Notes under the pieces: generated by a model | The model's database searches: none | Seen by the model: the letters and a program-made list of their open reading frames with translations, nothing else | Told to the model about the DNA's origin: nothing | Source of the DNA: Cyanidioschyzon merolae | Lineage: Eukaryota | DNA length: 64,000 bases | Assembly: GCA_000091205.1 (NCBI GenBank) | Contig: AP006491.2 | Direction: 5' to 3' (one strand) | Part shown: piece by piece, positions 1,615 through 60,450 of the stretch | Numbering within the stretch: position 1 is the stretch's first letter | Layout of the letters: each line of letters begins with the position of its first letter | Made by a program: the position numbers and the translations under genes

Positions 1615-2652
1615 TCAGGGGCCTGAAAGTATCCAGATTCGAGCATGCGTGGCGGCTCGTGACTCTCGTAGACGACCAAGATGCCGAAAAACATTCATCA
1701 GCGCTCTGCCCGTAGTATCCTGCTTCAGTGATGCAAAGGACTTGATATCTGTCTCGGAGAAAAAGTAGTGCCCGCGAGTCTCGTCCGTTTCCATGTCCTC
1801 ATAGCGGCAGCGCTGATCAAGCTGCGCAGAAGTGAGCTCATGCTTTGGACGACGCAAAAGCGCATACTTATAACGCAAGATGCTCTCAATATCGCTGATC
1901 GCTCTATGCAGACGCTCTATGGTGACGCGTCCGCGTATGTGCCCCGGAACTTGCTGGAGCGTCTCCTCAGTCACTGGCTCGACGCGTGGAGCGGCGTCAA
2001 CCGCCGGCGCTGCTCGGGGAAACGAGTCTCGCTTCCGTGGAACAGGCGAGACACTGTCGTTTACCCTGCCAGTGGGTGCTCCTTCTGATCCAGGTGGCTG
2101 CTGCGCGCTCGGTGGTGAAGCGTCCTCCGTACCAGCGCAAGTGCGCCCGGCGCGTCGCCGCTGCTGGAGCGCCACCTGCAAACGACGCCACTGCTGCCGC
2201 TGCTCTCGTACTCGGCGACAAAGCTGCTTCATTTGTCCGGCATATCGCAAGTCCTCCTCTAGCGCCTCTTTCAGCCAGTAGAAGTGCGTCTCCGCTGCTT
2301 GGAGCTGCGCCTCGGTGGCGTACAAGTGCTCATCCAACGCTGGCACTGCCTCAGCTGAGCGCATCAGCGCCAACCACTTGAGAGTACGCACCCGCCGGAC
2401 AAGAGTCGCAGCATCGGCACCCAGTTGACTCCCAATACCGAGTAGTCGTTGCTCATCGGGATGACCCTCAACCGGGACCTCTGAGCGTTCCCCGCGAGTC
2501 GACAGCATATGCAAAAGGTCCGACACGCGCCAGGGATTTTGAATGTCGCGGCCGCAATGGACGGTGCTTTGTTCCAATGCCGCACACGTCGATGAAACAG
2601 TCGATGCTCCACGAGCACGCAGGGTATATGAATACCGACGTGCAGACGCCAA
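1615..2652 (-). CDS. SKA1: Spindle and kinetochore-associated protein 1 (SKA1)-like, with C-terminal microtubule-binding winged-helix region
   Basis: The 345-aa ORF has the C-terminal block IRGRVTIERLHRAISDIESILRYKYALLRRPKHELT...ETRGHYFFSETDIKSFASLKQDTTGRALMNVFRHLGRLRE. This aligns by eye to the human SKA1 C-terminus (MKSRLTYNQINDVIKEINKAVISKYKILHQPKK...DTKGRYFIVEADIKEFTTLKADKK...LNILRHCRRLSEVRGG). The N-terminal start is uncertain because the first ATG lies 6 bp from a transposon remnant. Confidence 0.6.
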   Translation of the reverse strand: MASARRYSYTLRARGASTVSSTCAALEQSTVHCGRDIQNPWRVSDLLHMLSTRGERSEVPVEGHPDEQRLLGIGSQLGADAATLVRRVRTLKWLALMRSAEAVPALDEHLYATEAQLQAAETHFYWLKEALEEDLRYAGQMKQLCRRVREQRQQWRRLQVALQQRRRAGRTCAGTEDASPPSAQQPPGSEGAPTGRVNDSVSPVPRKRDSFPRAAPAVDAAPRVEPVTEETLQQVPGHIRGRVTIERLHRAISDIESILRYKYALLRRPKHELTSAQLDQRCRYEDMETDETRGHYFFSETDIKSFASLKQDTTGRALMNVFRHLGRLRESRAATHARIWILSGP

Positions 2653-2657
2653 CCAGT

Positions 2658-2946
2658 CTATGTCGACCGGCCAGCTACTAGTAGCTCCAACTTCTCCTTA
2701 TACGCCTCGAGTATCAGAGGCTGCCCCATAAAGTTGGTTCGCGCCAGCTCCTCGGGTCTCTTCTCCAGCACTGCACATCCCCTGACATTGAAGGCGGCGT
2801 CGAAGTCCCGGTACACAAATACGATACGTTTCTTCCCGTTGTTTGCACTTACGAATGCAAGTAGGCCTCGATTTTGGGCGCTCCATTCCATTTGCTCCTA
2901 CGTCAGCGCTGCGAACTTTTCTACATGCGCAGGGCTCCGCTTGCAC
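2658..2946 (-). pseudogene. Fanzor/TnpB-like RuvC-III-containing C-terminal fragment (decayed copy a)
   Basis: The 77-aa ORF reads NNGKKRIVFVYRDFDAAFNVRGCAVLEKRPEELARTNFMGQPLILEAYKEKLELLVAGRST. It is colinear and clearly homologous with the C-terminus of the 298-aa ORF at 36367..37263 (NGKKRMEFVNRDFNAALNIRTCVVLQTRPPEWTRENFVGQPLKVELYEQKLEAVVGGRS). The D-x-N-A-A-x-N-[IV] motif is the TnpB/Cas12 RuvC-III signature. The DNA at 2870..3000 also aligns with 36760..36900. Confidence 0.6.
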
Positions 2947-3380
2947 TTCTCCGTCTCGACTTTCTGAGGTGTACGCCCCAGCTCATTCCTGATTTTCTTG
3001 AAACTGAATGTATTTGTTCAAGACTTTGGGTGAAGACCTCCCGAGAAAGAGAGAAGGGCTTGCGGAAGAGAGGCGAAATTTGCCCTGGTGTCTCATTGTG
3101 TGCTGAACGAATCAGCGGTTCGCCCAGTGGAGCGATCAGTACGTTTCACGATAGAGAACATTTCCTCGCAGAGGATGCGCCACGATGAGCATGTAGGAAT
3201 GAAAAGCATCTCTACCTCAATAGAATCGGTAAAGGCTCGAACGCAAGTGGAATGGTCAAATGCCAAGTTGTCCAATAGAAGGAACTTCGCCGGACGTCAG
3301 TGACAGGTCTTCAACGATTCGACAAAGCGGGTGGTGCTGTTGTACGGGCCTTCACTACGACCGAAACTAAGGCCGCAAAA

Positions 3381-25166: not shown

Positions 25167-26511
25167 AAAGTGGTACACCGCAGGGCCTGTATGCACATGT
25201 AATCAAAAACATCCGGCTACAGCGTTGTTCGGTCGTTCACAGCATGATTCGGGTCTCGTGAGAAACATCTGGTGAACGACCTTTGCGGGATAATGGGGTT
25301 TCAGATAAGGTCTGTACCAAGATACGGTACAACGAAGCGTCTTGACCTGATGCAAGCGGCTTTATCATGGTCCAAATGGACAAATGGCGTGCCCGAAGTG
25401 GAATGCGCTCAAACCATGCTTCCTCCGGTGCATCATCCTGCATGAAGGACGGCATGCGTTGGAGCGTAGCGCTCGAGCACCGCACGAGACGCGCGACTGG
25501 TGCGCAGTATCTTCCAGGACTTACGCGATCCGCAACGACTGGCGGGTAGAGCTGGTGCACGGCAGAGCGGCAGCGTTCCAATTGTACTGAAGCGCGAGAC
25601 CACCCGACGGCGTACGAAGCGTCTCTACTCCGTTTATTGGCAGCGTGTGCACCCTCGCGGGAATGCTGCTTCGAACTGTGTTCCAGCAGATTTCGAAAAT
25701 GCACTGGCAACCAATCGTTCTGAGGCAACGACATCGAGTGCTGTAACAGTGGCCAAGCTATCGACACGCGCATGCAACCACGAAAGCGCACAAACGCTCA
25801 GGCGCTTCTGTGCAGAGCGGTGTACCTGCTCACGGGTCTGGGCGCTTTACTCAACCTGTCTTTAACACTTGGCGACAACTATAAACGACAAAATTACAAA
25901 CAAATGAAGGTCCAGCGGCCTCTCGTGGTGCGCGTGCACGCCTTGCACGGTGCAGCTGTGCTCGCGAGAGCGCCTTCCGGCAAACACCAGCAGCAACAGC
26001 GCAGTGCGCTGCTCTAACCTCCGTAGCCCGCTGAAGACGCGCGATCCCAGCTATCCATCCAAGACGGCCTTCGGACTCGTATCCCGTTGACGGAATGCAT
26101 GGAGGTATCGCAGGTATGCTCGTCGTAGCTGCCGCACCCAAGCGACGAACTCGAGGGCGTAGGCCGAGGCACGCGTACTCCTAGTCAGGGCTGGAAGACC
26201 CAAAAAAACAGAAATGTACAGATTACATGAGACCCCCGCCAGCGCCAGCGCCCGCGCCAGCGCCGCTCGTGACGCTGTCCCACGCTGACGCAACGTTTCC
26301 CTGCCCGAGGTACCATCGATGCGTCTCAGCGGGCATCTCGCCGCTGCGCTATGCTTATTTGGAAACGGAGAAGCAACCGCCAAACCACTCCAGAAACTCA
26401 CCCTGCCTGCTGGGGATTCTTTCAGAGAACAACCCCAGCGCGTACCCGTCGGGCGTCACGCTTGGTTCTTCAAGGCGTTCGCCAGGTGCGTGCCTTCCTG
26501 CATCACCGCTG

Positions 26512-26878
26512 CTGCTGATCTCTACTACAGATCTCTACTCATTGCTGATCTCTACTACAGATCTCTACTCATTGCTGATTGCTGATCTCTACTCATTGCT
26601 GATCTCTACTACAGATCTCTACTCGTTGCTGATTGCTGATCTCTACTCGTTGGTGATTGCTGATCTCTACTCGTTGCTGATTGCTGATCTCTACTCGTTG
26701 GTGATTGCTGATCTCTACTCATTGCTGATTGCTGATCTCTACTCATTGCTGATTGCTGATCTCTACTCATTGCTGATTGCTGATCTCTACTCGTTGCTGA
26801 TTGCTGATCTCTACTCGTTGCTGATTGCTGATCTCTACTCATTGCTGATTGCTGATCTCTACTCATTGCTGATTGCTG
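26512..26878. repeat. 24-bp tandem array, about 15 units (ctgattgctgatctctactc[a/g]ttg), preceded by a few 30-bp variant units
   Basis: Near-identical contiguous units are visible directly. The period is a multiple of 3, so the ORF stays open on both strands ((LIADLYSL)n on plus, (SRDQQSAM)n on minus). A 12-bp direct repeat, ctgcatcaccgc, flanks it at 26498..26509 and 26882..26893. Confidence 0.9.
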
Positions 26879-27441
26879 CCGCTGCATCACCGCCGGGGAT
26901 CGGCGCCGATTGGCCGACGCGATCGAGAGGCCGTCGAGTCGGCGCCGTCGACCGCTCCTCCCATACCTCCTGCAACGCCTCGTGGTACGCCTCCATTGAG
27001 GTTCAACACACAGGACGCCATTACGCTTGACAGCTTGGGTAACGAAACAGTGTTCACTGCTCTAGCGGTTCGGTGTGGTGTCCACTGGTAGTAGGTAGAG
27101 CCAAGTGGGGAAACGCACACGTCTACGTTTCTGGAGGCCTTGCTCAAACGTGCGTTTTCTCGGAACGCAGAGGCGCTCTGGGGTACGACCAGCGCAAGCC
27201 TTTCCTGAGGTTGCCCGCGGTGCCGGGAGCGCGCTCGACACACGCGTGCGTCTGAACGCACGACAACGGGTAAGTTTCGCGGAACCTCGGTGTGTGGTGA
27301 CGGGAGCTGCTGCGGCACTGGAGCGCCCGGTCACGAGGCTTCGAGGACCTGCGTCTGCGTCAGGAACCTAACTGGTGTTGGTGTTCCGCGCGGAGGGCGC
27401 CTGACTTTTGCGTCAGTCCGTCAGTCTGTTAGTCTGTACTC

Positions 27442-34049: not shown

Positions 34050-36419
34050 TCAACGATTCTCGGCAGGTCCTTGACGCCGCATGTGGCGCTCGTAGTAGAA
34101 TTGCGCAAAGGTAGGCAGCACTCGAGAGGAGACCACGGATGAAAGCGAACCTCCAGGTTCCGGATGCGTACACGACGCACCCGATGCCTGGCGGAAGACC
34201 AGCGTTAGCTCATTTAGGAGCGTTTCGTAGCGGTAGCGAACACGAATAGATGGAACATTGGACTTGTGGATATCGTTCCCCTGGTCATTGGTGAGAAACC
34301 AGCGCGGTCCGAGCCAGTGCGCCTTCACACAGGGCTCGAAACCGCTCTGTAGCGCAGAGTTTCGCGCCAGTTCACAGAGATCCGAACTGCTCAGTTTCCA
34401 TATCTGAGCGGCTACCGAGTACTCTTCCATGAGCGGCTCGCGAGAGAAATGGAACATAAGTGGATCATCGGTGCTGAGGCTCACATTCAGCCCGCGTGCA
34501 ATAAACACTGGTACCGGTGACTTGGTGTAATCGACGAATAGCAGGTTATTGCCCAGCGGAGAGACAGCGAGACCCACTTGGCACAGGTAGTAGAGGTACT
34601 GCAGCACGGGTGCTTTTTTCAAGTTAATCCCGTGATTAATACCGTGCGCGAGGAGAAACGTCACTGCCAGGTGATCGATTTCGCCGGCTTCACCAGCATG
34701 TGGGCGGAATCGAAAGGTATGCAGGCCTCGATGCTCGCGAAACCTGTTCAAAACCCATAAATTAGCGTAGATGTAGTAGGTGAAGTATGCATAGGGCATC
34801 GGTGCTGAGGTACGCCACGCTAGCGGCGGTGGCAAGGTCAACAAGTCGATGCGTGGCTGCGGTACACTCTCGTCGTCAACGGTGTCGAAGCCTACAATCT
34901 GTTGCAGAACTGTGTGCAGCTCCGGATGCGTTGATGGATCTTGCGTGACCTCAAATAGCGGGAAGAAAATATTGTTCAACATTTCCTGAAAGGATTCCAG
35001 CAACCCTGCTTCGTGGTAGGCGCCGAACAAACGCGGAATCTGGATCAACCATCGGGCGTGATCCGAGTAGATTCGATGCTTGGTGAACCAGCGAGCAAGA
35101 CGATCCCACTCGCATCGTTTTTTGCCGTATATCGAGATTCGGGGCTCGATATGGGAGTACTTGCTCTCTACAAGATCATCGAGGACCTCGCGGGTGATTT
35201 CCGCCAGAAATCGGCCTTCGATAAAGTTGTCCGTTTTCAGAAACACTTCCCGAAGACGAGATTCTCCCAGCGGGGAATACTTGTTATTGAAGCGGTCAAA
35301 GCGCTGCACGGTACGCTTATCCGCGTGCACGTCGAGCGTGTCCACCGACAGCTCATACGCCGTGATGCCGAGGGAGTCGAACACCCCGGCCAGCGTCAGA
35401 ACGCGGCCATCGCGCTCAATCACTGGGGTGTTCGGCTCGGTCTTGAGTTTCTTCTTAATAAATCGGAGCAGGTGCTTCTGGTTCATACAGGAGCTGTGAT
35501 GAATATGCGTGTCAACCTTGCGGACATTATAAAAGTCTCGATGCGGCACTGTCATCTGCTCTAGCCGCTCTGCTTCATCGTTGAGTAGCAGATGCATTTG
35601 AAAGCGCAGAGAGAGTAGTTGCAGACGCCTGTAGCAGAACGAGCGGGAGTCGGGATCGTTCATGATCCCGATCAGCGTGTTCAGATCGTGCACGAAAAGC
35701 GCATAGGAGCCAGGAACAACGAACTTGCACGGTTCGCGGCTTGTCTCGGTTGCCGGTCTTGTGACCTCCATGATGCCATCACGAACTTCGAACGCGTAAT
35801 CGCCCTTCGCCAGGGCTGGCCCTCGAAAAGGATCATACGGTGGCGGGACGTGGATACTCAGGTCACAGTCGCGGTACGGAGGTGCCGGGTTCGCATACTC
35901 TGGGACTTCAGGTAGGTAGAGGTATTTCTCGCGGAGGGCGATAGCGTTTCGGAGCAGTGCACATACCCTGCGCTCGTCGGCGTTTAACTCGACCTCGTTC
36001 GTGATGAGTACTCGCTGAAAACCTCGCTCTGTAACCGCAGATCGGAGTGAGCGGAAGGCTTGCCCAAGTTCTCGCCGGAGTTCAAGCGTCTGTAACGCAG
36101 TCAGGGTCGCCTCGTCTACCGAGGCCGTGTTGTGCACGAGTTGGGTTCCGTCGCTACGGTCACCTGAAGTGGAGGCTTCTTGCGCTCGCAGAGGATCGGT
36201 AACAGGAACCAGCAGCGCGTCCCGTGCCCTCTCGTCGGAGCGCTCACCAGCTGCCACCGACGATTGAACTAGACGACGCCAGTGAGGAGACAGGGCGCGC
36301 TGTGCAAGAACCGGTTCGGCATCCTCCTGTTCAAGGTCATGAATCCAAACGAGCTTGCCACTATCTCTACCAAATGGTTCCATGAGCGTGCACGTGCTCC
36401 AGTTCCCCGACACCGTCAC
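34050..36419 (-). CDS. AMPD: AMP deaminase
   Basis: 789 aa. It has the metal-binding motif VDTHIHHSSCMNQKHLLRFIK, SLSTDDPLMFHFSREPLMEEYSVAAQIWKLSSSDLCELARNS, and a long central block colinear with AMPD/Amd1. Start is either Met1 (36419) or Met13 (36383); Met1 overlaps the tail of the Fanzor ORF. Confidence 0.9.
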   Translation of the reverse strand: MTVSGNWSTCTLMEPFGRDSGKLVWIHDLEQEDAEPVLAQRALSPHWRRLVQSSVAAGERSDERARDALLVPVTDPLRAQEASTSGDRSDGTQLVHNTASVDEATLTALQTLELRRELGQAFRSLRSAVTERGFQRVLITNEVELNADERRVCALLRNAIALREKYLYLPEVPEYANPAPPYRDCDLSIHVPPPYDPFRGPALAKGDYAFEVRDGIMEVTRPATETSREPCKFVVPGSYALFVHDLNTLIGIMNDPDSRSFCYRRLQLLSLRFQMHLLLNDEAERLEQMTVPHRDFYNVRKVDTHIHHSSCMNQKHLLRFIKKKLKTEPNTPVIERDGRVLTLAGVFDSLGITAYELSVDTLDVHADKRTVQRFDRFNNKYSPLGESRLREVFLKTDNFIEGRFLAEITREVLDDLVESKYSHIEPRISIYGKKRCEWDRLARWFTKHRIYSDHARWLIQIPRLFGAYHEAGLLESFQEMLNNIFFPLFEVTQDPSTHPELHTVLQQIVGFDTVDDESVPQPRIDLLTLPPPLAWRTSAPMPYAYFTYYIYANLWVLNRFREHRGLHTFRFRPHAGEAGEIDHLAVTFLLAHGINHGINLKKAPVLQYLYYLCQVGLAVSPLGNNLLFVDYTKSPVPVFIARGLNVSLSTDDPLMFHFSREPLMEEYSVAAQIWKLSSSDLCELARNSALQSGFEPCVKAHWLGPRWFLTNDQGNDIHKSNVPSIRVRYRYETLLNELTLVFRQASGASCTHPEPGGSLSSVVSSRVLPTFAQFYYERHMRRQGPAENR

Positions 36420-37263
36420 ACAACAAACGCCGGTCTAAAGTCGAATGTCGCCTGCACTGTACAGTACCGGCGAGAAATTCGCCCCGGACAAGACGTCTCC
36501 AAATTATTCGCGGACGCCTCCCCGTGGTTCTCGACCGGCCACCTACTACTGCTTCCAACTTTTGCTCATATAATTCCACTTTGAGAGGTTGCCCCACAAA
36601 ATTCTCTCTTGTCCACTCTGGAGGTCTAGTCTGCAGCACTACACATGTCCTTATATTGAGAGCTGCATTAAAGTCTCGGTTCACAAACTCCATGCGTTTC
36701 TTACCGTTGGTTGTTATGCTAACCAATGCAAGGAGTCCTCGAACTTGTGCCCTCCTTTCCATCTGCTCTTCCGTCAGCTGTCCGTACTTTTTTATATCCT
36801 CAGGGCTCCTCTGGCACTTTTCCATCTCGACCCTTTGAAGTGTGCACCCCAGTTCATGATGTGTATACGATGTCCGGAACTCATCTATGGGTATCGTAAC
36901 GAAACGTTGTGCGCACTCCTTGTACGTTCGTGTCGTTGGAGCTGGCGTAGTCCTTTTTTGGGTCTTCCAGCGCCCTGCTCTGTATGCTTCTACCAGCCTC
37001 TGACTTTCATCCTCCTTCAAAGCGTTCAACTGATTGAAAACGTTCGCGAACGCGCGCCGCTTCCCACAATACAGATTCATACGCAGACTAGCCCACCGGG
37101 GCTTTGTATACTCCTCCCACAGTGCATCCCAATGCGCAACGCGAGCTTCCATGAATTTCCGGAAAGCTTCAAAGTCCGCTCCGCGGACCGTCACCTCGCT
37201 CAAAGCTTCCAGGTGCTCCTTCACCCCTGCATTCCATCTCTCAACTTTCTTCCTTGCATTCAC
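36367..37263 (-). CDS. Fanzor/TnpB-like nuclease, C-terminal half (RuvC-II region, zinc finger, RuvC-III), the most intact copy (copy c)
   Basis: 298-aa ORF. The segment ...AQRFVTIPIDEFRTSYTHHELGCTLQRVEMEKCQ... follows the TnpB pattern G..V..V.E.YTS..C..CG (RuvC-II Glu followed by the zinc finger). NRDFNAALNIRTC is the RuvC-III D-x-N-A-A-x-N-I signature. By comparison with copy a, which stops after ...VAGRST, the native stop is probably near 36520, and the last 50 or so codons are fortuitous read-through. Confidence 0.7.
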   Translation of the reverse strand: MNARKKVERWNAGVKEHLEALSEVTVRGADFEAFRKFMEARVAHWDALWEEYTKPRWASLRMNLYCGKRRAFANVFNQLNALKEDESQRLVEAYRAGRWKTQKRTTPAPTTRTYKECAQRFVTIPIDEFRTSYTHHELGCTLQRVEMEKCQRSPEDIKKYGQLTEEQMERRAQVRGLLALVSITTNGKKRMEFVNRDFNAALNIRTCVVLQTRPPEWTRENFVGQPLKVELYEQKLEAVVGGRSRTTGRRPRIIWRRLVRGEFLAGTVQCRRHSTLDRRLLCDGVGELEHVHAHGTIW

Positions 37264-40000
37264 AATACCGGATTCTCGATAGCATCTCGATCTCGAGAAA
37301 TCTCAAAAGACGCATATCTTTCTGGCGCACGTTACCGTCAATGCCATCTTCCGCACGCTTCGGTTCAGCGACGGGTATGATATTCGTGTGTCCGGGGTCC
37401 GCGCCAATGACAACGTCGTTATCCTCTACCTCCTGCGCGGCAGGACCCGGCTCCTTCTCATCTTCTTGTTTCGCCGCACCAACGATAACGTCGTTATCCT
37501 CTACCTCCTGCGTCGCAGGATCCGCCACCTTTTTTTCTTCATGCTTCGCCGAAGCGCAACTGAGGACGGAACTGGACGATCCACCTTCAAGCGCCGATAG
37601 TGTACGCACATGGCTACTCCATCGGTTTCGATCATCCCAGTGAGTACCTTTTGGTTGCTCGTCTAGACACGTATGAAATCGAAGGTATTCGTCCAATGCA
37701 ATTCCCGGTTTTCGCCCGTTAACTCCTTATCGCTGACATCGAACTCCGGACTGATCTTCTCCATGATGCTGTAAAGGACTCCGGAGTCGATTGAGACAGA
37801 GTGCGGCTTGATGTTGCACAACGGAACGACGTTGAAGCGCTTACCCATTAGGAAAGCCTTCCGTTCCTCCAACCCCGTCATTTCGTTTCCTGACTCAGCT
37901 TCATCTCCGCATTGCGTTCGAGTTCTCGGTTCAGGAGCATGAAATAGCGCAGGATGAGGGATACCATTTTTTTCATCTTTTTTCGTATATGATACGTTTT
38001 CTGCTGGATTTGACAAGCCCCATGACTGCACGGTGCTCTTGAATAGCCGCACGGATCAAAGTAGCTTCATACTTTCTCCCGCGTGATATCTTCTTGACGA
38101 CGAATTCGATCTCCTGTCCATTCTGGCGATCGCTCGTGATGCCATTGATGATGGTCCATATCCCCTGGCGGGAGAGGCCCAGGTACGTTGCAAAAACGGC
38201 GCATATCATGAAGCGTTTGAGTTTCATGGTCATACGATTCTTCAGGTTCGTGAGGTACTTGATCGTCCCGTATGAGTTAATATCTGCGACACTCTTGTAT
38301 AGAGTACCGTCGAAGCGGTATTCGGGGTGATTTTCGTGGACGGCATGCACTCTCTCATTTCTCCTCGACGCTTCCCCTGTGCCAAGCATCAGGTGGCGAA
38401 TAAAAGTCTTGTTGAAAAATTCTCTCGGAACCTCGAATGTTTTGATGTCCGTCATATCGCGATACATCTCCCTCGCCATATGCATCAGTTCAGAAGAAGT
38501 CTTTATAATTCTCAAGGAGTACGACTCGACACGGTTTCTGATGGCCTCTCGTAACTTTTTTTGTATGGATCCTTGGTATACTTTAGAAGACAGGCTTTCG
38601 CTACCATCTCATCTTACTGTCGCCTTCGTGCAGCTCCTTCATCTTCGCCTGCTCCTCTGGACTCGGCAATGTTTTTCGTTTTTCTCTGGCAGCTGGCGAC
38701 ACCGACCCTTCGAAATCCTCCACTTCCATATCAATGACTTGCTTATATTTTTTGGAAAAGAACGCACTATGAACGCTTCTGCTGGAAAGCGCGAAAACCC
38801 ACTGAGCACACTAAACTGAGGTTTGAAAAACGATCGGATTCAAAGACTATACTTTGCTATGACTTGAACGCGAATACATCTTGGACGCTATCGTAACACG
38901 CTGATGCCGCGATGCCATGCCGTTTTCGTGCATGCGACAAGTCCCCGGCAACAGTGCACGCTCCGAATGCCGCATCGCGTGTTTCCAGTCAAGTCTACGA
39001 ATAAGAAGGATGGCGCTTCCATTCGACGGCTACATGCGCTTCTTGTCTCATTTTTTGTCTGACAAACCGTTTACATTTACCATGGATCCTAGATTGCGGG
39101 ATGGGTATTGGCTTTCGGGAAAGTGTCCATCATGCTGTACCCTACGTCAAATGTCTATGACCTGTTCTCGGATATACTGGTTATTTCGCACATTCTGTTG
39201 TGCGCCGACTACCTGCTCCGAGCGCCGCCCCCTGCAGCGCGCACACTGCTGGTACGGATGCAGTATGGAAGCAGCACGGCTTTGGGATGCCGCTGAGCGC
39301 GTCAGCTCGAAGCGCTGTTCACCTACAACGGGGTCGGAGTGCATAATCATTCTGGGAGCCTGCAAACCGCGCAGGTAGAGCTTCTGCGTGCGGCAATGCG
39401 ATGCGATATACTAGGAGTCCAGTGCAACCGGGGCGACGCCCAGACGCAGCCTACCTGCCCCTAGTCCCAGAGTGAATTGCGTTGCGGACGAGCTGCACAG
39501 ATGTCACTACAGCACCCGCCACTGCAGAGGAATACGGAGCAAAAACTCCGGTGGACTCGTCCAGCTCGCGGGATCTTCCGCCTAGAAAATAATCTTTTGA
39601 AAAAACGGAAAGTTTTCCCCCTTTCGAACGCTGACGATGCAGTTCGAACGAAATTGTTATCAAGTTGCTATTTCATGGTTGGTTTCTATCCCTTTTTCCA
39701 TAGCGCGGTCGATACCCGAACTTGGGATCGCCTCGGCATGCGAACGGTGGCATCGGGAACCGCTGGCCTGTGTAGACATTTTGTCAAATAAAAAACACAA
39801 ACGCTCCCTGGATCCTTCGAAATCCAATTCCCGATACAAATACTTGTTCGACTGCGGTGCATTGCAGTACTTGCTTGCAAGGAGCATTCGTTACTTTCCG
39901 AGACGCTTCCAGTAACCGCGCGACCGGTGATTCTGGTAAGGTGCATCGGGTGCTGACCCTGAATACCCGGACCCCCGCGCGAATGGCCAGGTGCTGGCAG
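36420..40000 (-). mobile_element. Fanzor-bearing transposon (copy c), lower-GC island; boundaries approximate
   Basis: GC content drops visibly between about 36500 and 40500. Consecutive minus-strand ORFs in shifted frames (37241..37696, 37663..38052, 37973..38515) lie upstream of the RuvC ORF, indicating introns or decay of the N-terminal half. It carries modules repeated elsewhere in the window: 39330..39800 matches 47860..48290, and 39050..39140 matches 60330..60440 (reverse complement). It also has a tandem peptide repeat, QEVEDNDV(I/V)(V/I)GA. Confidence 0.5.
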
Positions 40001-43651: not shown

Positions 43652-44599
43652 GAACATTGTCAGGTCCGGTGTAAACGTCCGTTTTCTTCAAAAGGTACGC
43701 CCGGAGGGAGCGTTTTACGAACCCTGTGGCTCTGGTCGTCATGACGCCCATGCTCTGCTCAGCATCGTTGACGCATTCGCAGTTTGGGGAGCACGCTGTA
43801 CGGTGCTGGAACGGGTACCCGTGTTACCGCAGCTTGAGTGCTTGCTCGGTACGTCGAGCGCTCGCGCAACACCACAGCAACACACTCTGCATCTTCGATG
43901 AAAAATGTTGCAGCTTGTTTCCCTCATAGGACTTTCTGGAGGAATCTCTGGTGATGTTCACGCATCTTCTGTGACGAACAAGCAGGGAATTCGCAGCACC
44001 TGCATCCGAGCGTCTGCTGCATGTATGCTGGTGCTCGCACAGCGACGGCAACAGTGTCGGTGCGTCTCGGGCCGATGCCCCCAGTGGTACGGCAGAGTCG
44101 TTCTGTCTTCGTGCTGCTTCTGCACCGGCGCTAGCGGTACTATTGTGGATGCTTCTGGAAGACTCGGCGGGTCATGGAACATGGTTAGTGACCAGATTCT
44201 CCGTGGGGAAATATTGGGCAGTTCAATTTGGAGCTCGGATGTATATCGACAGATGCTTTTCCAATCGCTGATATCAAGCAAGCCGTCGGGGATCCCTAGT
44301 CAGTACACACGTTCGATCAAAGGAAACGTGAACGGCATCACTGCTGTGCATCCAAGTCGCGTGCGCCCGCGATCAGCAGCGCACATCTGCCTTCCTTTCA
44401 GTACTATACGCAAGGCATTGTTTCATGCCAGAGGATGCGCTCAGATTCATCATGGAGAGGATCTACATGTACAGTTGCAGTCAACTACGCAGCGCTCGGG
44501 TTCTACTGACGACTGACCAGCCTGCTGGCTCGCATGCAGTCGACATGTCGTGGCCCGTACCGCACCGTGCGGTCATTGGTGCGTCCCCGGGGCGATGCC

Positions 44600-45375
44600 C
44601 GCTGGCGCCATCGCATCCTGCCCCGGCTCCCGGAACCCATAAACATCCTCTTTGAATGCGTGGAGCGTTCAAGGCGTCGTCTGTTTGTCACCAGTTTTTC
44701 AGGGATGAAGCGCAGCCGCCCATTGCTGCAGGAGCCGAGCACAGTCAACATCCTCTTTGAATGCGTGGAGCGTTCAAGGCGTCGTCTGTTTGTCACCAGT
44801 TTTTCAGGGATGAAGCGCCGCCGCCCATTGCTGCAGGAGCCGAGCACAGTCAACATCCTCTTTGAATGCGTGGAGCGTTCAAGGCGTCGTCTGTTTGTCA
44901 CCAGTTTTTCAGGGATGAAGCGCCGCCGCCCATTGCTGCAGGAGCCGAGCACAGTCAACATCCTCTTTGAATGCGTGGAGCGTTCAAGGCGTCGTCTGTT
45001 TGTCACCAGTTTTTCAGGGATGAAGCGCCGCCGCCCATTGCTGCAGGAGCCGAGCACACTCAACATCCTCTTTGAATGCGTGGAGCGTTCAAGGCGTCGT
45101 CTGTTTGTCACCAGTTTTTCAGGGATGAAGCGCCGCCGCCCATTGCTGCAGGAGCCGAGCACAGTCAACATCCTCTTTGAATGCGTGGAGCGTTCAAGGC
45201 GTCGTCTGTTTGTCGCCAGTTTTTCAGGGATGAAGCGCAGCCGTCCATTGCTGCAGGAGCCGAGCACACTCAACATCCTCTTTGAATGCGTGGAGCGTTC
45301 AAGGCGTTCGTCTGTTTGTCACCAGTTTTTCAGGGATGAAGCGCAGCCGCCCATTGCTGCAGGAGCCGATCTCAG
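44600..45375. repeat. 105-bp tandem array, about 7.4 near-identical units
   Basis: The unit is catcctctttgaatgcgtggagcgttcaaggcgtcgtctgtttgtcaccagtttttcagggatgaagcgc[c/a]gccgcccattgctgcaggagccgagcaca[g/c]tcaa. Copies start at 44644, 44749, 44854, 44959, 45064, 45169 and 45274. The period is 35 codons, so ORFs stay open on both strands (plus strand: ILFECVERSRRRLFVTSFSGMKRRRPLLQEPSTVN repeated). Confidence 0.9.
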
Positions 45376-46866
45376 CACCAGTCGTACCGATTGCAGTGGT
45401 ACCCGCGTAATGCAGCTCCCCAATGTCGTTCGAGGTACACTGGGGCGCGGTGACCTCTGGGTGCCCCACCCACACTGCGAGTAGCTTATGCGTGTGTAGA
45501 CCGTGTCAAGCCGTATCAAGAGTCCTCACATAACGTGCTTTTTGAATGTCAGCAGTTGGTCCACATGACCAGGCGCTGCCTTGTCGCATAAACGAGAACT
45601 CGGGGATGTCTTCTGGGAATTCGAGACGACTTCCACGAGAATCGCGTTTGTTTGGTAACGAGTTAAAGGACCCATCCTGATCCGACCGCGACCACAACTG
45701 CGCTCTAGTGCCTGTATCAATCACCTCGCGCGCAGTTGTGTAGTTCCATGGCTCTGCAAATGTCACAACTCCTCGTACGGAAACGCAGCGACATCTTTGC
45801 ATGAACTTGACAGAATGCTGGATTTCCTGCTCACTCCCCGAAGCCTAGTCGTTCGGAGTGCTTTCGTCTCGTGGGCTGTGGCGCAGAGCTCTCCAAGGAT
45901 GCTCCTTTCTGAACTACACGCCCGTGAACAGCGGTGATCTCGTCCATGCATCCAGGTTGCTGACACGCTCGTGATATCCTGGGGGAAACTTTACCACTCA
46001 ACACTTCGTTTTGCGCACCGATCTCAATACCAGTGAGAACAATGCTGATGCGCATCAACAGAGCGCAAGGCAGCCTCCTGGTCTCGGGCGCACCATCCGT
46101 CTCGTGGAGCAGGGACGCTCCAGCATCAAAACTGCTCGCCGATAATCGGGTCCGCTATGCATTTCAGCGCAGCAGTCCATTGCGTGTCGCAAATCTCAAT
46201 GCCTGTACCCGATTCAGCTCGTGAACACGAACAGAGCAACGTGCACGATCACTAAAGCCAGACAAGTGCACGCACCACAGACCAGCACGCCTCAAGGGCA
46301 CCTTTCCCTGCCAAGTCAAAAAACGTACCACTGCCCCGAATTTCCCGTACGATGCGTCAGCACCTGTGGCGAAATGAGCTCGTGAGGCCGCACGCCTAAC
46401 CTCGACGATCAGGGCTGCATCAGCGCGCTCTATCTAATGCACTGCGCCCGCACTAGTCCAGCTGACATGGCCACTCGCTCACGAGAAGCTTCACATTGCA
46501 AATGCAGCCACGCGTCATGGAGCGTCTGCGTCCCGGGACGCACACCCGAAATGCCTAGGCGCCCGCTCGCACGCGGATGCTTCCGTGTGGGCAAGATGGT
46601 GCACGCCGCAGCGCTGCCGCGTTGCGCACGACCTCCGCTTCGTGCACGACATCGCGTGAGCATACGATCACACTAGTCCATGACACAGGCAGCAAGCAGG
46701 AAGATACCCGACCGTATCACTCTTTCCTGGAGTCGATCCAAACGATCCACCCAAGACTCGCGTATTCCGCCGTCCCAGCTCGCCGTGCTAATGCACGCCC
46801 TGGAGACACCTCTCTGTGGCACGATGGACAGATCGATCGACAAGCCTCCTGCGTTTACACAGATTC

Positions 46867-47301: not shown

Positions 47302-47859
47302 GTCGAACGCGAGTTCAGGTCACTCCCTGAAGTGGGCAGTATACAGAACTCCAAAAATACCGGCCACTGTGGTTGCACGCGGTTACGCTACTCCCGCTCC
47401 ACTCTACTACCAAAGCGCAAAGCCAACTACTCTTCAGTCTTGACTTGCTTCTCAAGTAACGTCAGTGCACCGTGCCTTGCGCTTGTCCAGGGAACGTACC
47501 AAGCTCTCGCAGAAGTGTATCGCCCGTTGGGCTCGTGGCAGGAGCGCGCACGCGCACACGGCATCGATGTTTTTCCGATGACCAAATTCGTGTCCATGGA
47601 CCAGGGATCCCAGATTGTGAGATGGGTATTCGTAATTGAAAAAGCGTCCATGATGATGCACTTTACCTTCAAGTTCCATTCCTTGGCCTTCAGCTCGGAT
47701 ATACTGGTCGTTTTGTAGGTTATATTGTGTGTCAAGTGCATGCCTTGGAGCATCCACAACAGAGCCGAAACCGCTGGAGCAGATATTTCATAGAGGCAGG
47801 ACCGGATTTGCCACACCATTGACTACTTCGACTCGGGGCTTGGATCATCCGACACAGGG

Positions 47860-49960
47860 TCGGTATACACGATCATTCTGGGAGCCTGCAAATTTCGCAG
47901 ACAGACCTACTGTGTCCGACTGCGCGAAGCGATATACTACAAGTCCACTGCGACCAGGGCGATGCCCAGACGCAACATCGGCGCTCCGAGTCCCAGAATA
48001 CACTGCGTTGCGGCCGAGTTGGTCAGATCTCACTAACGCAACAGCCACAGGAGAGAGCACGAAGCACCAGCCCGGCAGACTTGTCCGGTTCGCGGGATCT
48101 TCCACCTCTAAGGTAAAGTTTCGACAAAAAGGAAACCATTTCCCCTTCTTCATGTTTGCCGTAGAGGGGCAAAGAACTCGTTCTATCGTTGCTCGTTCGT
48201 GGATAGTTTCTGATCTTTTTTCTGTGCAGTGCGGTCGATATGCGCACCTGGGAGATCTAGCACGCTCGAGGCACGACGCGCATCGACAAGTGCCACTGGC
48301 GGTGCGGCTTCATTCCATGCGCGCGTGCTGCACCGAGTTACTGGTATCGATGACCCGAGTTCGATTCTTTCATACGACACGACACGTCATCCTCTGAGGC
48401 GTACGGGGGTTTCACGCCAGCTTCCCTTTGCATCAAGGCAAGGTCAGGTGCGTATATTGTGATTCTTTCTAAATCGTATCAGGGCAGATGCACGGTGCCT
48501 GCTCCATTTTTTCACATGCAGATGGTTACCGCATCTTGAAACGGACACGTCCAAGTTTTCCAAGTGGCGTCCATACGCCCGCAATTTCGAGCGAGCAGCG
48601 AACGAACCCGCCACGGCAAGCGCTCTGGTACCACCCGCTCGATTCAGCGGTATCCAGACCAGAGCGATTCGGAGTTGAACGACAAAGACCTAGACATCAA
48701 GGCGCATCCCATAGAATAGTGTCAGATGAATATGGAACACTGAGTTGCTCGCTCCTTTCCTGAATTTCGCTCATTATCCGAAGATTTTCAGATGTTCTGC
48801 CTCGGCATTTGAATAGTTTCAAGAACGGCTTGCGCATTCATATGTAGTTCTTGGATTCTCGGTCGTTTGCACGGGGCAGGTCCAACGAAGCAACGCAGCT
48901 GGAATGAATTACCTTGCCGGAATCAAAATGCTTCGCGACGCCCTCAGACAAGCATTGGTAAAATAACCGATATCATCATCCAATTCATACGTACAAGAAT
49001 CCGCGCTTCTTTCCTGACGTGAAGCATGTTAGGGCCATGCATGCTTCAAGTTTTCCGACTCTCTATTTCACGACAACTCATGGGCGGAGCCATTTGCGCC
49101 CCCGAATGAACGACGAAAAATCACAGTCGGTGTCATCTCTCGACGACTTGTTCATGAATGCATGTTGGAAGGTCACTGAACGTTTCATAGCAAATAATCG
49201 ATTCTATTCGAAGCACAAACCTTCCTCTCCTTGTGGCCGACGACGGAATGGCATTCGAGCGCAGCAGCTTTATACCGGTCACATGAGATGCCTCCACATG
49301 CCCCCGTCGGTTCTGTTTGCGTGGAAAAGAGTTGCATCCTCGGACTTTAGTGATCGCAGCGATCGCTTCTATTTTAGGGTGCGTCAACGAGTCGCGAGTG
49401 GAGAGCTTAGACGGTTCAAATTTCTGGATTTGATCTTAAGCCAGGATTTTCCTTCCGGTACTTGATTCGTCATGAACAACATCGCGTTCCACAAATCCTC
49501 TACCGAATGGGCGAGCGTTCACTTGCGTGTGCAGCGGACTGGGTACTCGCCGACGGGATTGCCCAGAGGAAGCCCGCGTTCGTCGGGCACGACACCGGGT
49601 GCGGAATCCGAAGAAGCCACTGAGCTTAGCCTTCTGTGCCCGTCAAGGGCATGTACCGGGCGATGATGCAAGCGTTTGCGTGCCACAAGACGGCGCTCGG
49701 ACGAGCAGCTCTGCTGGCGGTCTCCAGGAACACGTGACAGCGGTCAAAAGTCACTTCTGCGATGCGAGAACCGATACTGTATAGAATAAAACGAGGAAAT
49801 GAGCACATCAAGCATAGATTGCAGCTTCCATCAGTTTGTGCAATGCACCGACAGCTGCCGAAAGTTGCAAACCGGGACCTGAACGCTGTCATCAATATTC
49901 TTCGGCTGCTGGAACGTACTCGGAGGCAAAGGGGAGACAGACGAACGCAAAGCCCTTGAC
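47860..49960 (+). mobile_element. Degenerate Fanzor-bearing transposon remnant (copy d); boundaries approximate
   Basis: 47860..48290 is homologous to 39330..39800. The shared stretches are cattctgggagcctgcaaa, gcgatatactac, cagggcgatgcccagacgcaac and tcccagaatacactgcgttgcggccgag. 48800..49560 is homologous to 18900..19650. The 49019..49465 ORF holds a decayed zinc-finger region (QQLYTGHMRC, compared with EFRTSYTHHELGC). The 49762..49959 ORF holds NRDLNAVINILRL, the RuvC-III motif. A lower-GC island. Confidence 0.5.
49762..49959 (+). pseudogene. Fanzor/TnpB-like RuvC-III fragment of copy d
   Basis: The 65-aa ORF contains KVANRDLNAVINILRLLERT, the third independent occurrence in this window of the D-x-N-A-A-x-N-I motif. 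The upstream protein context is missing. Confidence 0.5.
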
Positions 49961-60249: not shown

Positions 60250-60450
60250 CCCAGTTACGCTCACGTCCCCAGTACCGAGCTACCTGTGGAACGTCCAACG
60301 TTCCAAGCATTTCTGTGAGGAAGTATAGATGGTTGCCGGTGGACCTTGACGGTGGGATGAGATATGATTGACGCTTTCCCGAAACTCAACACCCACCCGT
60401 CTCGCAAGCTGGGATCCATGGTCCATGGAAACGTTTTTTCATCGGAAAAA
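60250..60450 (-). mobile_element. Short fragment of the same transposon family (copy e)
   Basis: The reverse complement of 60330..60440 (cgtttccatggaccatggatcccagcttgcgagacgggtgggtgttgagtttcgggaaagcgtcaatcat) aligns with 39050..39140 of copy c (cgtttacatttaccatggatcctagattgcgggatgggtattggctttcgggaaagtgtccatcat). The encoded peptides are FPWTMDPSLRDGWVLSFGK and FTFTMDPRLRDGYWLSGK. Confidence 0.45.

What the first reader, a model, noticed from the sequence alone, without database searches (positions are those of the whole stretch)
36300..36620. Likely position of the omega-RNA / element right end, overlapping the AMPD 5' region
In TnpB and Fanzor systems the guide (omega) RNA is transcribed from the 3' end of the nuclease ORF and runs to the transposon right end. 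Here the conserved C-terminus ends about 36520, judged by where copy a terminates (...VAGRST stop). The six-frame ORF then reads through about 50 more codons into the AMPD start codon at 36419. So the omega-RNA scaffold and the element boundary should lie at about 36400..36560, exactly in the AMPD promoter and 5' UTR. The element could therefore supply transcription signals or an antisense RNA to AMPD.
Basis: inference. Interest (0 to 1): 0.55.

Follow-up and report, generated by a model that had tools for sequence, protein, structure and literature searches.

The report
Dead Fanzor transposon end abutting AMPD
The interval is the right-hand end of a long-dead copy of a known Fanzor1 transposon of the red alga Cyanidioschyzon merolae. 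It stops about 30 bases before the AMP deaminase start codon, and many sister copies sit the same way in front of other genes.

Summary
The window is from C. merolae 10D. On the minus strand, 38916 to about 36416 is one decayed copy of the CMe-1A Fanzor1 family described by Bao and Jurka in 2013.

- **Right end.** Comparison with 49 independent insertion loci puts the right end (RE) at 36411-36421.
- **AMPD start.** The AMPD start codon is the ATG at 36383, not 36419. It lies 27-37 nt past the RE on the same strand.
- **3' RNA domain.** The family consensus for the last 132 nt folds into a stable RNA on the sense strand only (z -5.3, against -0.8 for the antisense strand). This fits an ancestral omega-RNA scaffold, but covariation is weak and there are no expression data.
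- **State of this copy.**
  - The ORF is split over at least four frame changes.
  - The family stop codon (36486-36484) is lost.
  - 11 of 52 model pairs are broken, and the terminal hairpin is degraded.
  - A working omega-RNA complex encoded entirely by this copy is therefore very unlikely.
- **Antisense idea.** It fails, because any RE transcript would be sense to AMPD.
- **Transcription-signal idea.** It gains indirect support. In 10 of 31 loci with a recognisable RE, a co-oriented host ORF starts 14-42 nt after the RE motif (expected 2.3%, p about 1e-9).

The element family is known. The RE mapping and the start-codon adjacency pattern appear new.

The parts
36411..38916 (-). Decayed CMe-1A-type Fanzor1 element body. 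The right end is at 36411-36421. Left-side homology to other copies ends at 38882-38916.
   Evidence: blastn to L002-L004. Coverage profile of 80 loci. Conservation drop at about 36420.
36484..38729 (-). Fanzor1 pseudogene. Coding remnants are spread over at least 4 frame changes. RuvC motifs are still readable: GADPGHTN 37405-37382, IDEFRTS 36888-36868, VNRDFNAALNI 36684-36652.
   Evidence: Three-frame translation. tblastn of P0001, P0009, P0014 and P0005 shows frame switches near 38625, 38560, 37960-37870, 37550 and 37280. Motif coordinates. D484, E656 and D725 are invariant in the 80-sequence alignment A4.
36484..36486 (-). Position of the family stop codon. It is CGG in this copy, so the ORF reads on to 36367.
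   Evidence: TAG in 23, TAA in 4 and TGA in 1 of 42 aligned copies; the window is the only CGG. Consensus compared with window.
36420..36552 (-). Remnant of the family's structured 3' RNA domain, the candidate ancestral omega-RNA scaffold. It overlaps the last 23 codons of the ORF, the stop position and the non-coding tail.
   Evidence: Covariance model R1, built from 33 other copies, matches here only: 91.3 bits, E 2e-19, model positions 1-133. The consensus 132-nt fold is -63.6 kcal/mol, z -5.3. The window fold has z -1.7.
36411..36460 (-). Degraded terminal (subterminal) hairpin and G/T-rich tail marking the right end.
   Evidence: Consensus GCGTCGTTCGA-CTT-TCGAACGGCGT. A second subfamily has a different sequence but also a hairpin. 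Terminal ~40 nt MFE: median -13.3, best copies -16 to -23, window -7.1 kcal/mol. By inspection of the alignment, 4 of the 9 core pairs are broken here.
36469..36485 (-). Small GGCG...CGCC hairpin of the 3' domain. It is retained in this copy.
   Evidence: RNAalifold's only consensus helix. Stem conserved and loop hypervariable among copies.
36384..36410 (-). Unique spacer between the right end and the AMPD ATG. This is where a guide segment would have been read out, and it is now the AMPD 5' leader.
   Evidence: No homology to other copies. Invariant among 9 strain and assembly sequences.
34050..36383 (-). AMP deaminase CDS (777 aa). The first and only usable ATG is at 36383.
   Evidence: Pfam AMP_deaminase 4.4e-248. 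Exact match to BAM80004.1 / XP_005536290.1. There is no other in-frame ATG before the conserved domain (sequence).
2642..2986 (-).
   Evidence: tblastn, blastn, alignment A1. The covariance model gives no significant hit there (8.3 bits).
39068..39727 (+). TE-N2_CMe-like repeat next to the element's left side. It is inverted relative to the arrangement seen in most other loci that carry it, so it is probably a separate insertion.
   Evidence: Repeat at 47589-48253, 68% identical. Orientation in other loci. Bao and Jurka 2013 (PMC3627910) describe the 5' 635 bp of CMe-1A as equal to TE-N2_CMe.

Best explanation
The interval 36411-36560 is the right-end region of a dead, fixed copy of the CMe-1A Fanzor1 transposon family of Cyanidioschyzon merolae.

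**Ancestral state (inferred).** In the active ancestor, the last ~133 nt of the element were transcribed in the sense direction. This stretch covers the final 23 codons, the stop codon and a 65-75 nt tail. It folded into a compact RNA: a closing helix (GCAGUAGU.../...ACUACUGU), an internal stem-loop, a small GGCG/CGCC hairpin, and a 12-17 bp terminal hairpin ending at the transposon end. By analogy with TnpB and Fanzor systems, this would be the omega-RNA scaffold. The ~20 nt of flanking DNA read through after it would be the guide.

**Present state (shown).**
- The nuclease gene is broken by several frameshifts.
- The stop codon is mutated.
- About a fifth of the RNA pairs, including the terminal hairpin, are disrupted.
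- The copy therefore no longer encodes a working RNA-guided nuclease complex of its own.

**Consequence for AMPD (geometry shown, effect inferred).** The AMPD ATG lies 27-37 nt beyond the element end on the same strand. The AMPD transcription start and most of its 5' leader and core promoter must therefore lie inside the relic. The alternative is that AMPD is transcribed through the relic.
For: **Organism and gene.** Exact matches to C. merolae 10D proteins.

**Family.** Bao and Jurka 2013 (PMC3627910) describe CMe-1A: about 150 copies, about 80% identical to their consensus, no TIRs, TSDs undetermined. Here 363 related stretches were found.

**Fanzor1 membership.**
- Profile hits to PpFz, SpuFz and GtFz.
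- An AF2 model at pLDDT 83.6 with Foldseek top hits SpuFz1, PpFz and GtFz.
- An invariant D-E-D triad.

**Right end.** Sharp loss of conservation at about 36420 across 49 independent loci.

**RNA domain.**
- Consensus z -3.3 over 209 nt and -5.3 over 132 nt on the sense strand, against -0.8 on the antisense strand.
- G-U is the commonest pair at 11 of 52 positions.
- A second subfamily keeps a terminal hairpin with a different sequence.
- One model hit per element, and no hit away from an element.

**Decay of this copy.**. The same indels are present in independent metagenome assemblies that are 99.4% identical over 8.7 kb, so they are not sequencing errors.

**AMPD geometry.**
Against: - No transcript or small-RNA data were available, so neither an omega-RNA nor an AMPD start site inside the relic was observed.
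- Covariation support is weak: 0.116 against 0.105, reached by 12 of 500 shuffles, on A6; 0.140 against 0.125, reached by 2 of 500, on A3. The structure was derived from the consensus of these same sequences.
- RNAalifold alone recovered only 3 pairs.
- Most helix-1 pairs hardly vary, so they say nothing either way.
- The terminal 200 nt are not better preserved in copies that abut genes than in those that do not (0.864 against 0.859, p 0.85). The 3' end is also the least conserved part of the element. So no post-insertion constraint on a promoter was detected.
- No Rfam family matches, although no Fanzor omega-RNA family is expected there.
Confidence: 0.6

Rival explanations
1. The conserved 3' structure is a DNA-level transposition signal, not a guide-RNA scaffold. 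It would be a subterminal hairpin recognised by the unknown transposase, like the right-end hairpin of IS200/IS605 elements or the 3' hairpin of Helitrons.
For: The element has no TIRs and no detectable TSDs (PMC3627910; 0 inverted repeats). It carries a strong hairpin a few nt from its end, and that hairpin is kept in two subfamilies with different sequences. This layout resembles IS200/IS605 ends.
Against: The fold is strongly strand-asymmetric: sense z -5.3 and -3.3, antisense z -0.8. It also depends on many G-U pairs, which points to an RNA read from the sense strand. The structured domain is 133 nt, far more than a recognition hairpin. The end (...GGTG) is not the CTRR of Helitrons. The two roles are not mutually exclusive; in IS200/IS605 elements the right-end hairpin lies within the omega-RNA region.
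Confidence: 0.2
2. The closeness of the right end to the AMPD ATG reflects insertion-site targeting rather than promoter donation. The family would integrate preferentially, and in sense orientation, into the first nucleotides upstream of start codons (5' UTRs or start sites with open or single-stranded DNA). The host genes would keep a very short native leader or initiator.
For: A co-oriented ATG lies 14-42 nt after the RE motif in 10 of 31 loci and within 130 nt in 16 of 31. The expected rates are 2.3% and 6.9%. The left side never abuts a gene (148-1621 nt), and 12 of 13 upstream neighbours are divergent. There is no extra conservation of the 3' end in gene-abutting copies.
Against: In some loci only about 6-15 nt separate the element from the ATG (PCCB, hydrolase, HCO3- transporter), which leaves little room for a native start site. 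Three or four loci abut the stop codon of a convergent gene instead. The transposition mechanism is unknown.
Confidence: 0.3
3. The 3' conservation and fold carry no function. They would be by-products of coding sequence, recent common ancestry and G+C-rich composition, and AMPD adjacency would be chance.
For: Copies decay neutrally, so conservation alone proves nothing. Covariation is weak. More than half of the 133-nt domain overlaps or adjoins coding sequence.
Against: Dinucleotide-shuffle z of -5.3 with none of 200 shuffles as stable, and only on one strand. The hairpin is retained with a changed sequence in a second subfamily. Start-codon adjacency recurs at independent loci with p about 1e-9.
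Confidence: 0.1

Closest known systems
CMe-1A Fanzor1 element family of Cyanidioschyzon merolae (Bao and Jurka 2013, Mob DNA 4:12, PMC3627910)
   Same: Same organism. Multi-copy (hundreds of related stretches). No TIRs. A single Fanzor1 ORF. Copies roughly 10-20% diverged from their consensus. Association with a TE-N2_CMe-like ~650-bp repeat.
   Different: In this copy the adjacent TE-N2-like block is inverted relative to most other loci that carry it. Almost all copies examined here have broken ORFs. The paper did not map the right end, describe a 3' RNA structure, or report the position of copies relative to host start codons.
Fanzor1 RNA-guided nucleases with solved structures: SpuFz1 (8GKH, 9CEU), PpFz (9CF0), GtFz (9CER); Saito et al. 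2023 (PMC10432273)
   Same: Profile and fold similarity over the whole protein. RuvC D-E-D triad. A non-coding RNA expected from the transposon end, which may overlap the ORF's stop codon (the PMC10432273 figure legend notes this overlap).
   Different: About 15% sequence identity. The family carries an acidic 25-aa tandem-repeat insertion, modelled at low confidence, before RuvC-I. No RNA, TAM or cleavage data exist for this family. The window copy is a pseudogene.
TnpB omega-RNA (reRNA) of IS200/IS605 elements such as ISDra2
   Same: The scaffold is encoded at the 3' end of the nuclease gene and runs to the right end. The guide is read from flanking DNA. The element lacks TIRs and TSDs and has a subterminal hairpin.
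   Different: Eukaryotic host. No TnpA-like transposase in the element. No TAM identified. RNA not observed.
Transposable-element-derived promoters and 5' leaders of host genes (TE exaptation in general)
   Same: A fixed TE relic occupies the position where the host gene's core promoter and leader must be.
   Different: Here the pattern is family-wide, specific to the right end and biased in orientation. No expression evidence or sequence constraint was found.

Membership tests
Fanzor1 (eukaryotic TnpB-like RNA-guided nuclease) | Significant sequence-profile similarity to experimentally characterised Fanzor1 proteins | tested here: met
   The A4 profile (80 sequences) against PDB gives PpFz 9cf0 at 2.7e-21, SpuFz 8gkh at 3.8e-14 and GtFz 9cer at 1.2e-5. 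A shallow profile of close paralogues alone gave no hit, and Pfam gave none.
Fanzor1 (eukaryotic TnpB-like RNA-guided nuclease) | Fanzor/TnpB fold | tested here: met
   AF2 model of homologue P0001: pLDDT 83.6, pTM 0.81. The top 7 Foldseek PDB hits are all Fanzor1 (E 7e-17 to 5e-14, TM up to 0.73), followed by Cas12 proteins. The model is of a paralogue, not of the window's broken ORF.
Fanzor1 (eukaryotic TnpB-like RNA-guided nuclease) | Split RuvC domain with a catalytic D-E-D triad | tested here: met
   D484, E656 and D725 are invariant in A4. The window copy keeps GADPG, DEFRTS and NRDFNAA, but these lie in different reading frames.
Fanzor1 (eukaryotic TnpB-like RNA-guided nuclease) | Intact ORF able to produce the nuclease | tested here: not met
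   At least 4 frame changes and a lost stop codon. The same sequence is present in independent assemblies. The window copy is a pseudogene of the family.
Omega-RNA / OMEGA guide RNA | Structured non-coding RNA encoded at the 3' end of the nuclease gene and running to the transposon right end | tested here: inconclusive
   Position and size fit. The consensus fold has z -5.3 on the sense strand only. A covariance model gives one hit per element. Covariation is weak. There is no Rfam match.
Omega-RNA / OMEGA guide RNA | The RNA is expressed, binds the nuclease and carries a flank-derived guide; a TAM lies next to the target | not testable with these tools
   No RNA-seq or biochemical data are accessible. 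The left-end flank (TAM) was not analysed because the 5' regions of copies are variable.
CMe-1A (Repbase family of Bao and Jurka 2013) | C. merolae, high copy number, about 80% identity to consensus, about 3 kb, no TIRs | tested here: met
   Organism. 363 related stretches. Column identity to consensus 0.88-0.93 among the best 43 copies. No inverted repeats. The Repbase consensus itself was not available for comparison.
CMe-1A (Repbase family of Bao and Jurka 2013) | 5' 635 bp identical to TE-N2_CMe, in the same orientation as the Fanzor gene | tested here: not met
   The TE-N2-like block at 39068-39727 is inverted relative to its orientation in most loci that carry it, and 150 bp of unique DNA separate it from the body. 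Many other copies lack the block altogether.
Helitron | 3' end CTRR preceded by a hairpin; 5' TC; insertion between A and T | tested here: not met
   A hairpin is present, but the consensus end is ...GGCGTT(T)GGTG, not CTRR. The 5' end was not examined.

The most novel reading that the evidence does not exclude
CMe-1A Fanzor1 right ends are not randomly placed. About a third of copies end within a few tens of nucleotides of the start codon of a co-oriented host gene. Examples are AMPD, propionyl-CoA carboxylase beta, an HCO3- transporter and a POT1-like protein; FtsZ2-1 and GGPP synthase lie within ~100 nt. Two readings remain open. Either the outward-reading transcription unit at the element's 3' end (the putative omega-RNA promoter) now serves as promoter and leader for a set of C. 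merolae genes, or the family integrates by an orientation-specific mechanism aimed at the first bases upstream of start codons.
Probability: 0.4. Interest if true: 0.75.

Novelty: new member of a known kind. Interest (0 to 1): 0.5.

Why it matters
The element family and its Fanzor1 nature have been known since 2013, so the window copy itself is an ordinary dead transposon. Three things are added here.

1. **A base-level right end** for a family whose termini were described as undetermined.
2. **A candidate omega-RNA scaffold** of 133 nt that is stable only on the sense strand. This could guide experiments on a red-algal Fanzor1.
3. **A statistical pattern.** Right ends of this family abut the start codons of co-oriented host genes far more often than chance would give.

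If the pattern reflects promoter donation, it would be a case of guide-RNA transcription signals being co-opted for host gene expression in a very compact eukaryotic genome. If it reflects targeting, it gives a clue to the unknown transposition mechanism of Fanzor1 elements that have no TIRs and no TSDs. Both readings can be tested with existing C. merolae RNA-seq data and with its genetic tools.

Tried and rejected
- **Pfam.** Scans of the ORF fragments and of close homologues found no family. Only a weak precomputed DUF8286 tag and one sub-threshold Cas12f1-like TNB hit in a distant relative appeared.
- **PDB with a shallow profile.** The profile of close paralogues gave no Fanzor hit, and phmmer with one distant relative gave none. 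A deeper 80-sequence alignment was needed.
- **AF2 with the shallow alignment.** It failed at pLDDT 32.
- **RNAalifold on 42 copies.** It returned only 3 pairs. A naive all-pairs stem scan gave mostly chance stems.
- **Rfam.** Nothing relevant in the window or in a well-preserved copy.
- **Bacterial promoter and terminator scan.** Not applicable to a eukaryote, and empty.
- **Kinetoplastid origin.** This was my first guess, from the long intronless ORFs and a weak snoRNA hit. It was rejected by exact protein matches to C. merolae.
- **Empty site.** All nine strain and assembly sequences of the AMPD locus carry the insertion, so no TSD could be read.
- **Extra purifying selection on the 3' end of gene-abutting copies.** The test was negative.
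- **Literature on C. merolae start sites or 5' UTR lengths.** Nothing usable was found.
Full report
**What is at the coordinates.** On the minus strand a mechanical ORF (36367..37263, 298 aa) carries the motifs IDEFRTS and VNRDFNAALNI. It runs into the 5' edge of a long ORF (34050..36419) that Pfam identifies as AMP deaminase at 4.4e-248. From its first ATG at 36383 the AMPD product (777 aa) is identical to C. merolae 10D BAM80004.1 / XP_005536290.1. Two neighbouring window proteins also match 10D proteins exactly. The window is therefore from the finished C. merolae 10D genome. No other in-frame ATG precedes the conserved deaminase domain, so 36383 is the start.

**The nuclease gene is a Fanzor1 pseudogene.**
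- Upstream of the 298-aa ORF, further homologous pieces lie in other frames, up to about 38729.
- A reconstructed 793-aa query found 18 close homologues in metagenomes. tblastn of four of them back onto the window shows at least four frame switches, near 38625, 38560, 37960-37870, 37550 and 37280.
- Independent metagenome assemblies of the same locus (L005, L006) are 99.4% identical over 8.7 kb without indels. The frameshifts are therefore real.
- Pfam and a shallow PDB profile gave nothing, and AF2 on the shallow alignment failed.
- An exhaustive HMMER search found 1400 relatives. An 80-sequence alignment (A4) has invariant D484, E656 and D725.
- The A4 profile hits the solved Fanzor1 proteins of Parasitella (2.7e-21), Spizellomyces (3.8e-14) and Guillardia (1.2e-5).
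- With that alignment AF2 gave pLDDT 83.6. Foldseek's seven best PDB hits are all Fanzor1, followed by Cas12 proteins.
- Bao and Jurka (2013, PMC3627910) already described this family as CMe-1A. They reported about 150 copies, about 80% identity to consensus, about 3 kb, no TIRs, TSDs undetermined, and a 5' 635 bp equal to TE-N2_CMe.

**Where the element ends.**
- A scan of metagenome contigs returned 363 related stretches, of which 80 loci were kept. Clustering by flanking sequence gave 49 independent insertion sites.
- Column conservation is 0.8-0.93 up to window position 36431, 0.67 at 36430-36421, and at background level (about 0.35-0.45) beyond that.
- In the best-preserved copies the 3' arm of the terminal hairpin continues into a short G/T-rich tail ending ...GGTG, which pairs with an upstream CACC.
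- This places the right end at 36411-36421, which is 27-37 nt before the AMPD ATG.
- The family stop codon aligns to 36486-36484. It is a stop in 28 of 42 copies and is CGG here, which explains the read-through to 36367.
- All nine strain and assembly sequences of the AMPD locus carry the insertion, so no empty site was available.

**Is there an omega-RNA?**
- The family consensus for the last 209 nt folds at -76 kcal/mol, z -3.3.
- The last 132 nt alone fold at -63.6 kcal/mol, z -5.3, with none of 200 shuffles as stable. The fold has a closing helix, an internal stem-loop, a small GGCG/CGCC hairpin and a long terminal hairpin.
- The reverse complement is not unusual, at z -0.8. G-U is the commonest pair at 11 of 52 positions. 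Both points favour an RNA read in the sense direction over a DNA hairpin.
- A second subfamily has a terminal hairpin of different sequence and register.
- Covariation is only weak. On A3 it is 0.140 against 0.125, reached by 2 of 500 shuffles. On A6 it is 0.116 against 0.105, reached by 12 of 500. RNAalifold found three pairs. This is expected if most differences are neutral decay after insertion, but it means the structure is not proven.
- A covariance model built from 33 other copies finds exactly one hit in the window, 36420-36552 (-), at 91.3 bits and E 2e-19, with 11 of 52 pairs broken.
- Across 46 sources the model finds one hit per element and none outside an element. The window copy ranks 36th of 49.
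- The window's own fold has z -1.7. Its terminal hairpin (-7.1 kcal/mol) is among the three weakest of 42.
- Rfam has no match.
- Conclusion: the family very plausibly had an omega-RNA scaffold of about 133 nt ending at the right end, as in other Fanzor and TnpB systems (PMC10432273, PMC10530073). The window copy is a decayed remnant of it.

**Relation to AMPD.**
- The element and AMPD are on the same strand, so any RE transcript is sense, not antisense.
- Only 27-37 nt separate the element from the ATG. The AMPD core promoter and most of its leader must lie inside the relic, unless the gene uses an extremely short leader or is transcribed through 2.5 kb of dead transposon.
- This is inference from geometry. 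No transcript data were available.

**A family-wide pattern (found in passing).**
- Among 31 loci with a recognisable right-end motif, a co-oriented ORF of at least 150 aa starts 14-42 nt after the motif in 10 loci, and 64-126 nt after it in 6 more.
- From the window's own intergenic DNA the expected rates are 2.3% for 42 nt or less and 6.9% for 130 nt or less. That gives binomial p of 1.3e-9 and 2.8e-11.
- The ORFs are real genes. Five that were looked up have the same length as annotated 10D proteins: a hydrolase and an MLO2-like protein (within 42 nt), PCC beta (14 nt), and GGPP synthase and FtsZ2-1 (81 and 103 nt). Two others carry HCO3-transporter and POT1 domains.
- In a separate pass over all 49 loci with a 200-aa threshold, the nearest downstream ORF is co-oriented in 29 cases and convergent in 14.
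- On the left side the nearest ORF is 148-1621 nt away, and it is divergent in 12 of 13 loci.
- The 3' ends of gene-abutting copies are no better preserved than those of other copies. So I cannot separate promoter donation followed by selection from orientation-specific targeting of sites next to start codons.

**Verdict.**
It is a Fanzor1 right end with an ancestral omega-RNA-like domain directly in front of AMPD. But this copy is dead, the antisense idea is wrong, and the transcription-signal idea remains an untested inference that the family-wide pattern makes more credible.
- The element is a known family. The right-end mapping, the candidate scaffold and the start-codon adjacency appear to be new.

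Noticed in passing
31 independent loci (e.g. L050:856-1010, L022:1530-1690, L019:2522-2680, L024:4706-4860) and window 36383-36421: Right ends of CMe-1A Fanzor1 copies abut the start codons of co-oriented host genes. The ATG lies 14-42 nt after the RE motif in 10 of 31 loci and within 130 nt in 16 of 31. Expected rates are 2.3% and 6.9% (p about 1e-9 and 3e-11). The left ends never abut genes.
   Followed up: partly
window 37399-37548 (minus-strand ORF): A 75-nt tandem repeat encoding an acidic 25-aa unit (..ATQEVEDNDVV..) just before the RuvC-I motif. Copy number varies between family members, from 2 here to 4-5 elsewhere. The region is modelled at low confidence (pLDDT below 50, residues 377-469 of P0001).
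   Followed up: partly
window 39068-39727 and 47589-48253 (plus a fragment at 60364-60441): A ~660-bp repeat, probably TE-N2_CMe, 68% identical between the two window copies and present in about 25 of the fetched loci. Next to the Fanzor relic it lies in the opposite orientation to that seen in most other loci that carry it.
   Followed up: partly
window 2642-2986 and the ORF starting at 2508 (minus strand): The second Fanzor fragment ('copy a'), which lacks its right end, also lies about 130 nt upstream of a co-oriented ORF (297 aa from the ATG at 2508).
   Followed up: no
window 44537-45466: About nine tandem copies of a 105-nt unit, up to 100% identical, inside an ORF (44534-45484). It is a repetitive protein-coding gene.
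   Followed up: no
window 26500-26926: Tandem 24-nt repeats (about 15 units) and 54-nt repeats inside the ORF 26227-27030.
   Followed up: no
window 36559-36576 (minus strand; TATA-like core 36566-36574): A TATA-like string (CTATATGAG in the family consensus, TTATATGAG here) about 150 nt upstream of the right end. It is nearly invariant among the 42 aligned copies. It lies in coding sequence (ELYEKK), so the conservation may be incidental. It is a possible internal promoter element for an outward transcript.
   Followed up: no
L001, L087-L092 (contig starts at window-equivalent 36445-36581): Short-read contigs carrying AMPD all break inside the last ~170 nt of the element. This is the behaviour expected at the edge of a high-copy repeat.
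   Followed up: yes
window 36370-36540 compared across 9 strain and assembly sequences (alignment A5): No SNPs in the ~75 nt before and around the AMPD ATG, against 6 variable sites in the ~95 nt further upstream. The numbers are too small to call this constraint.
   Followed up: no
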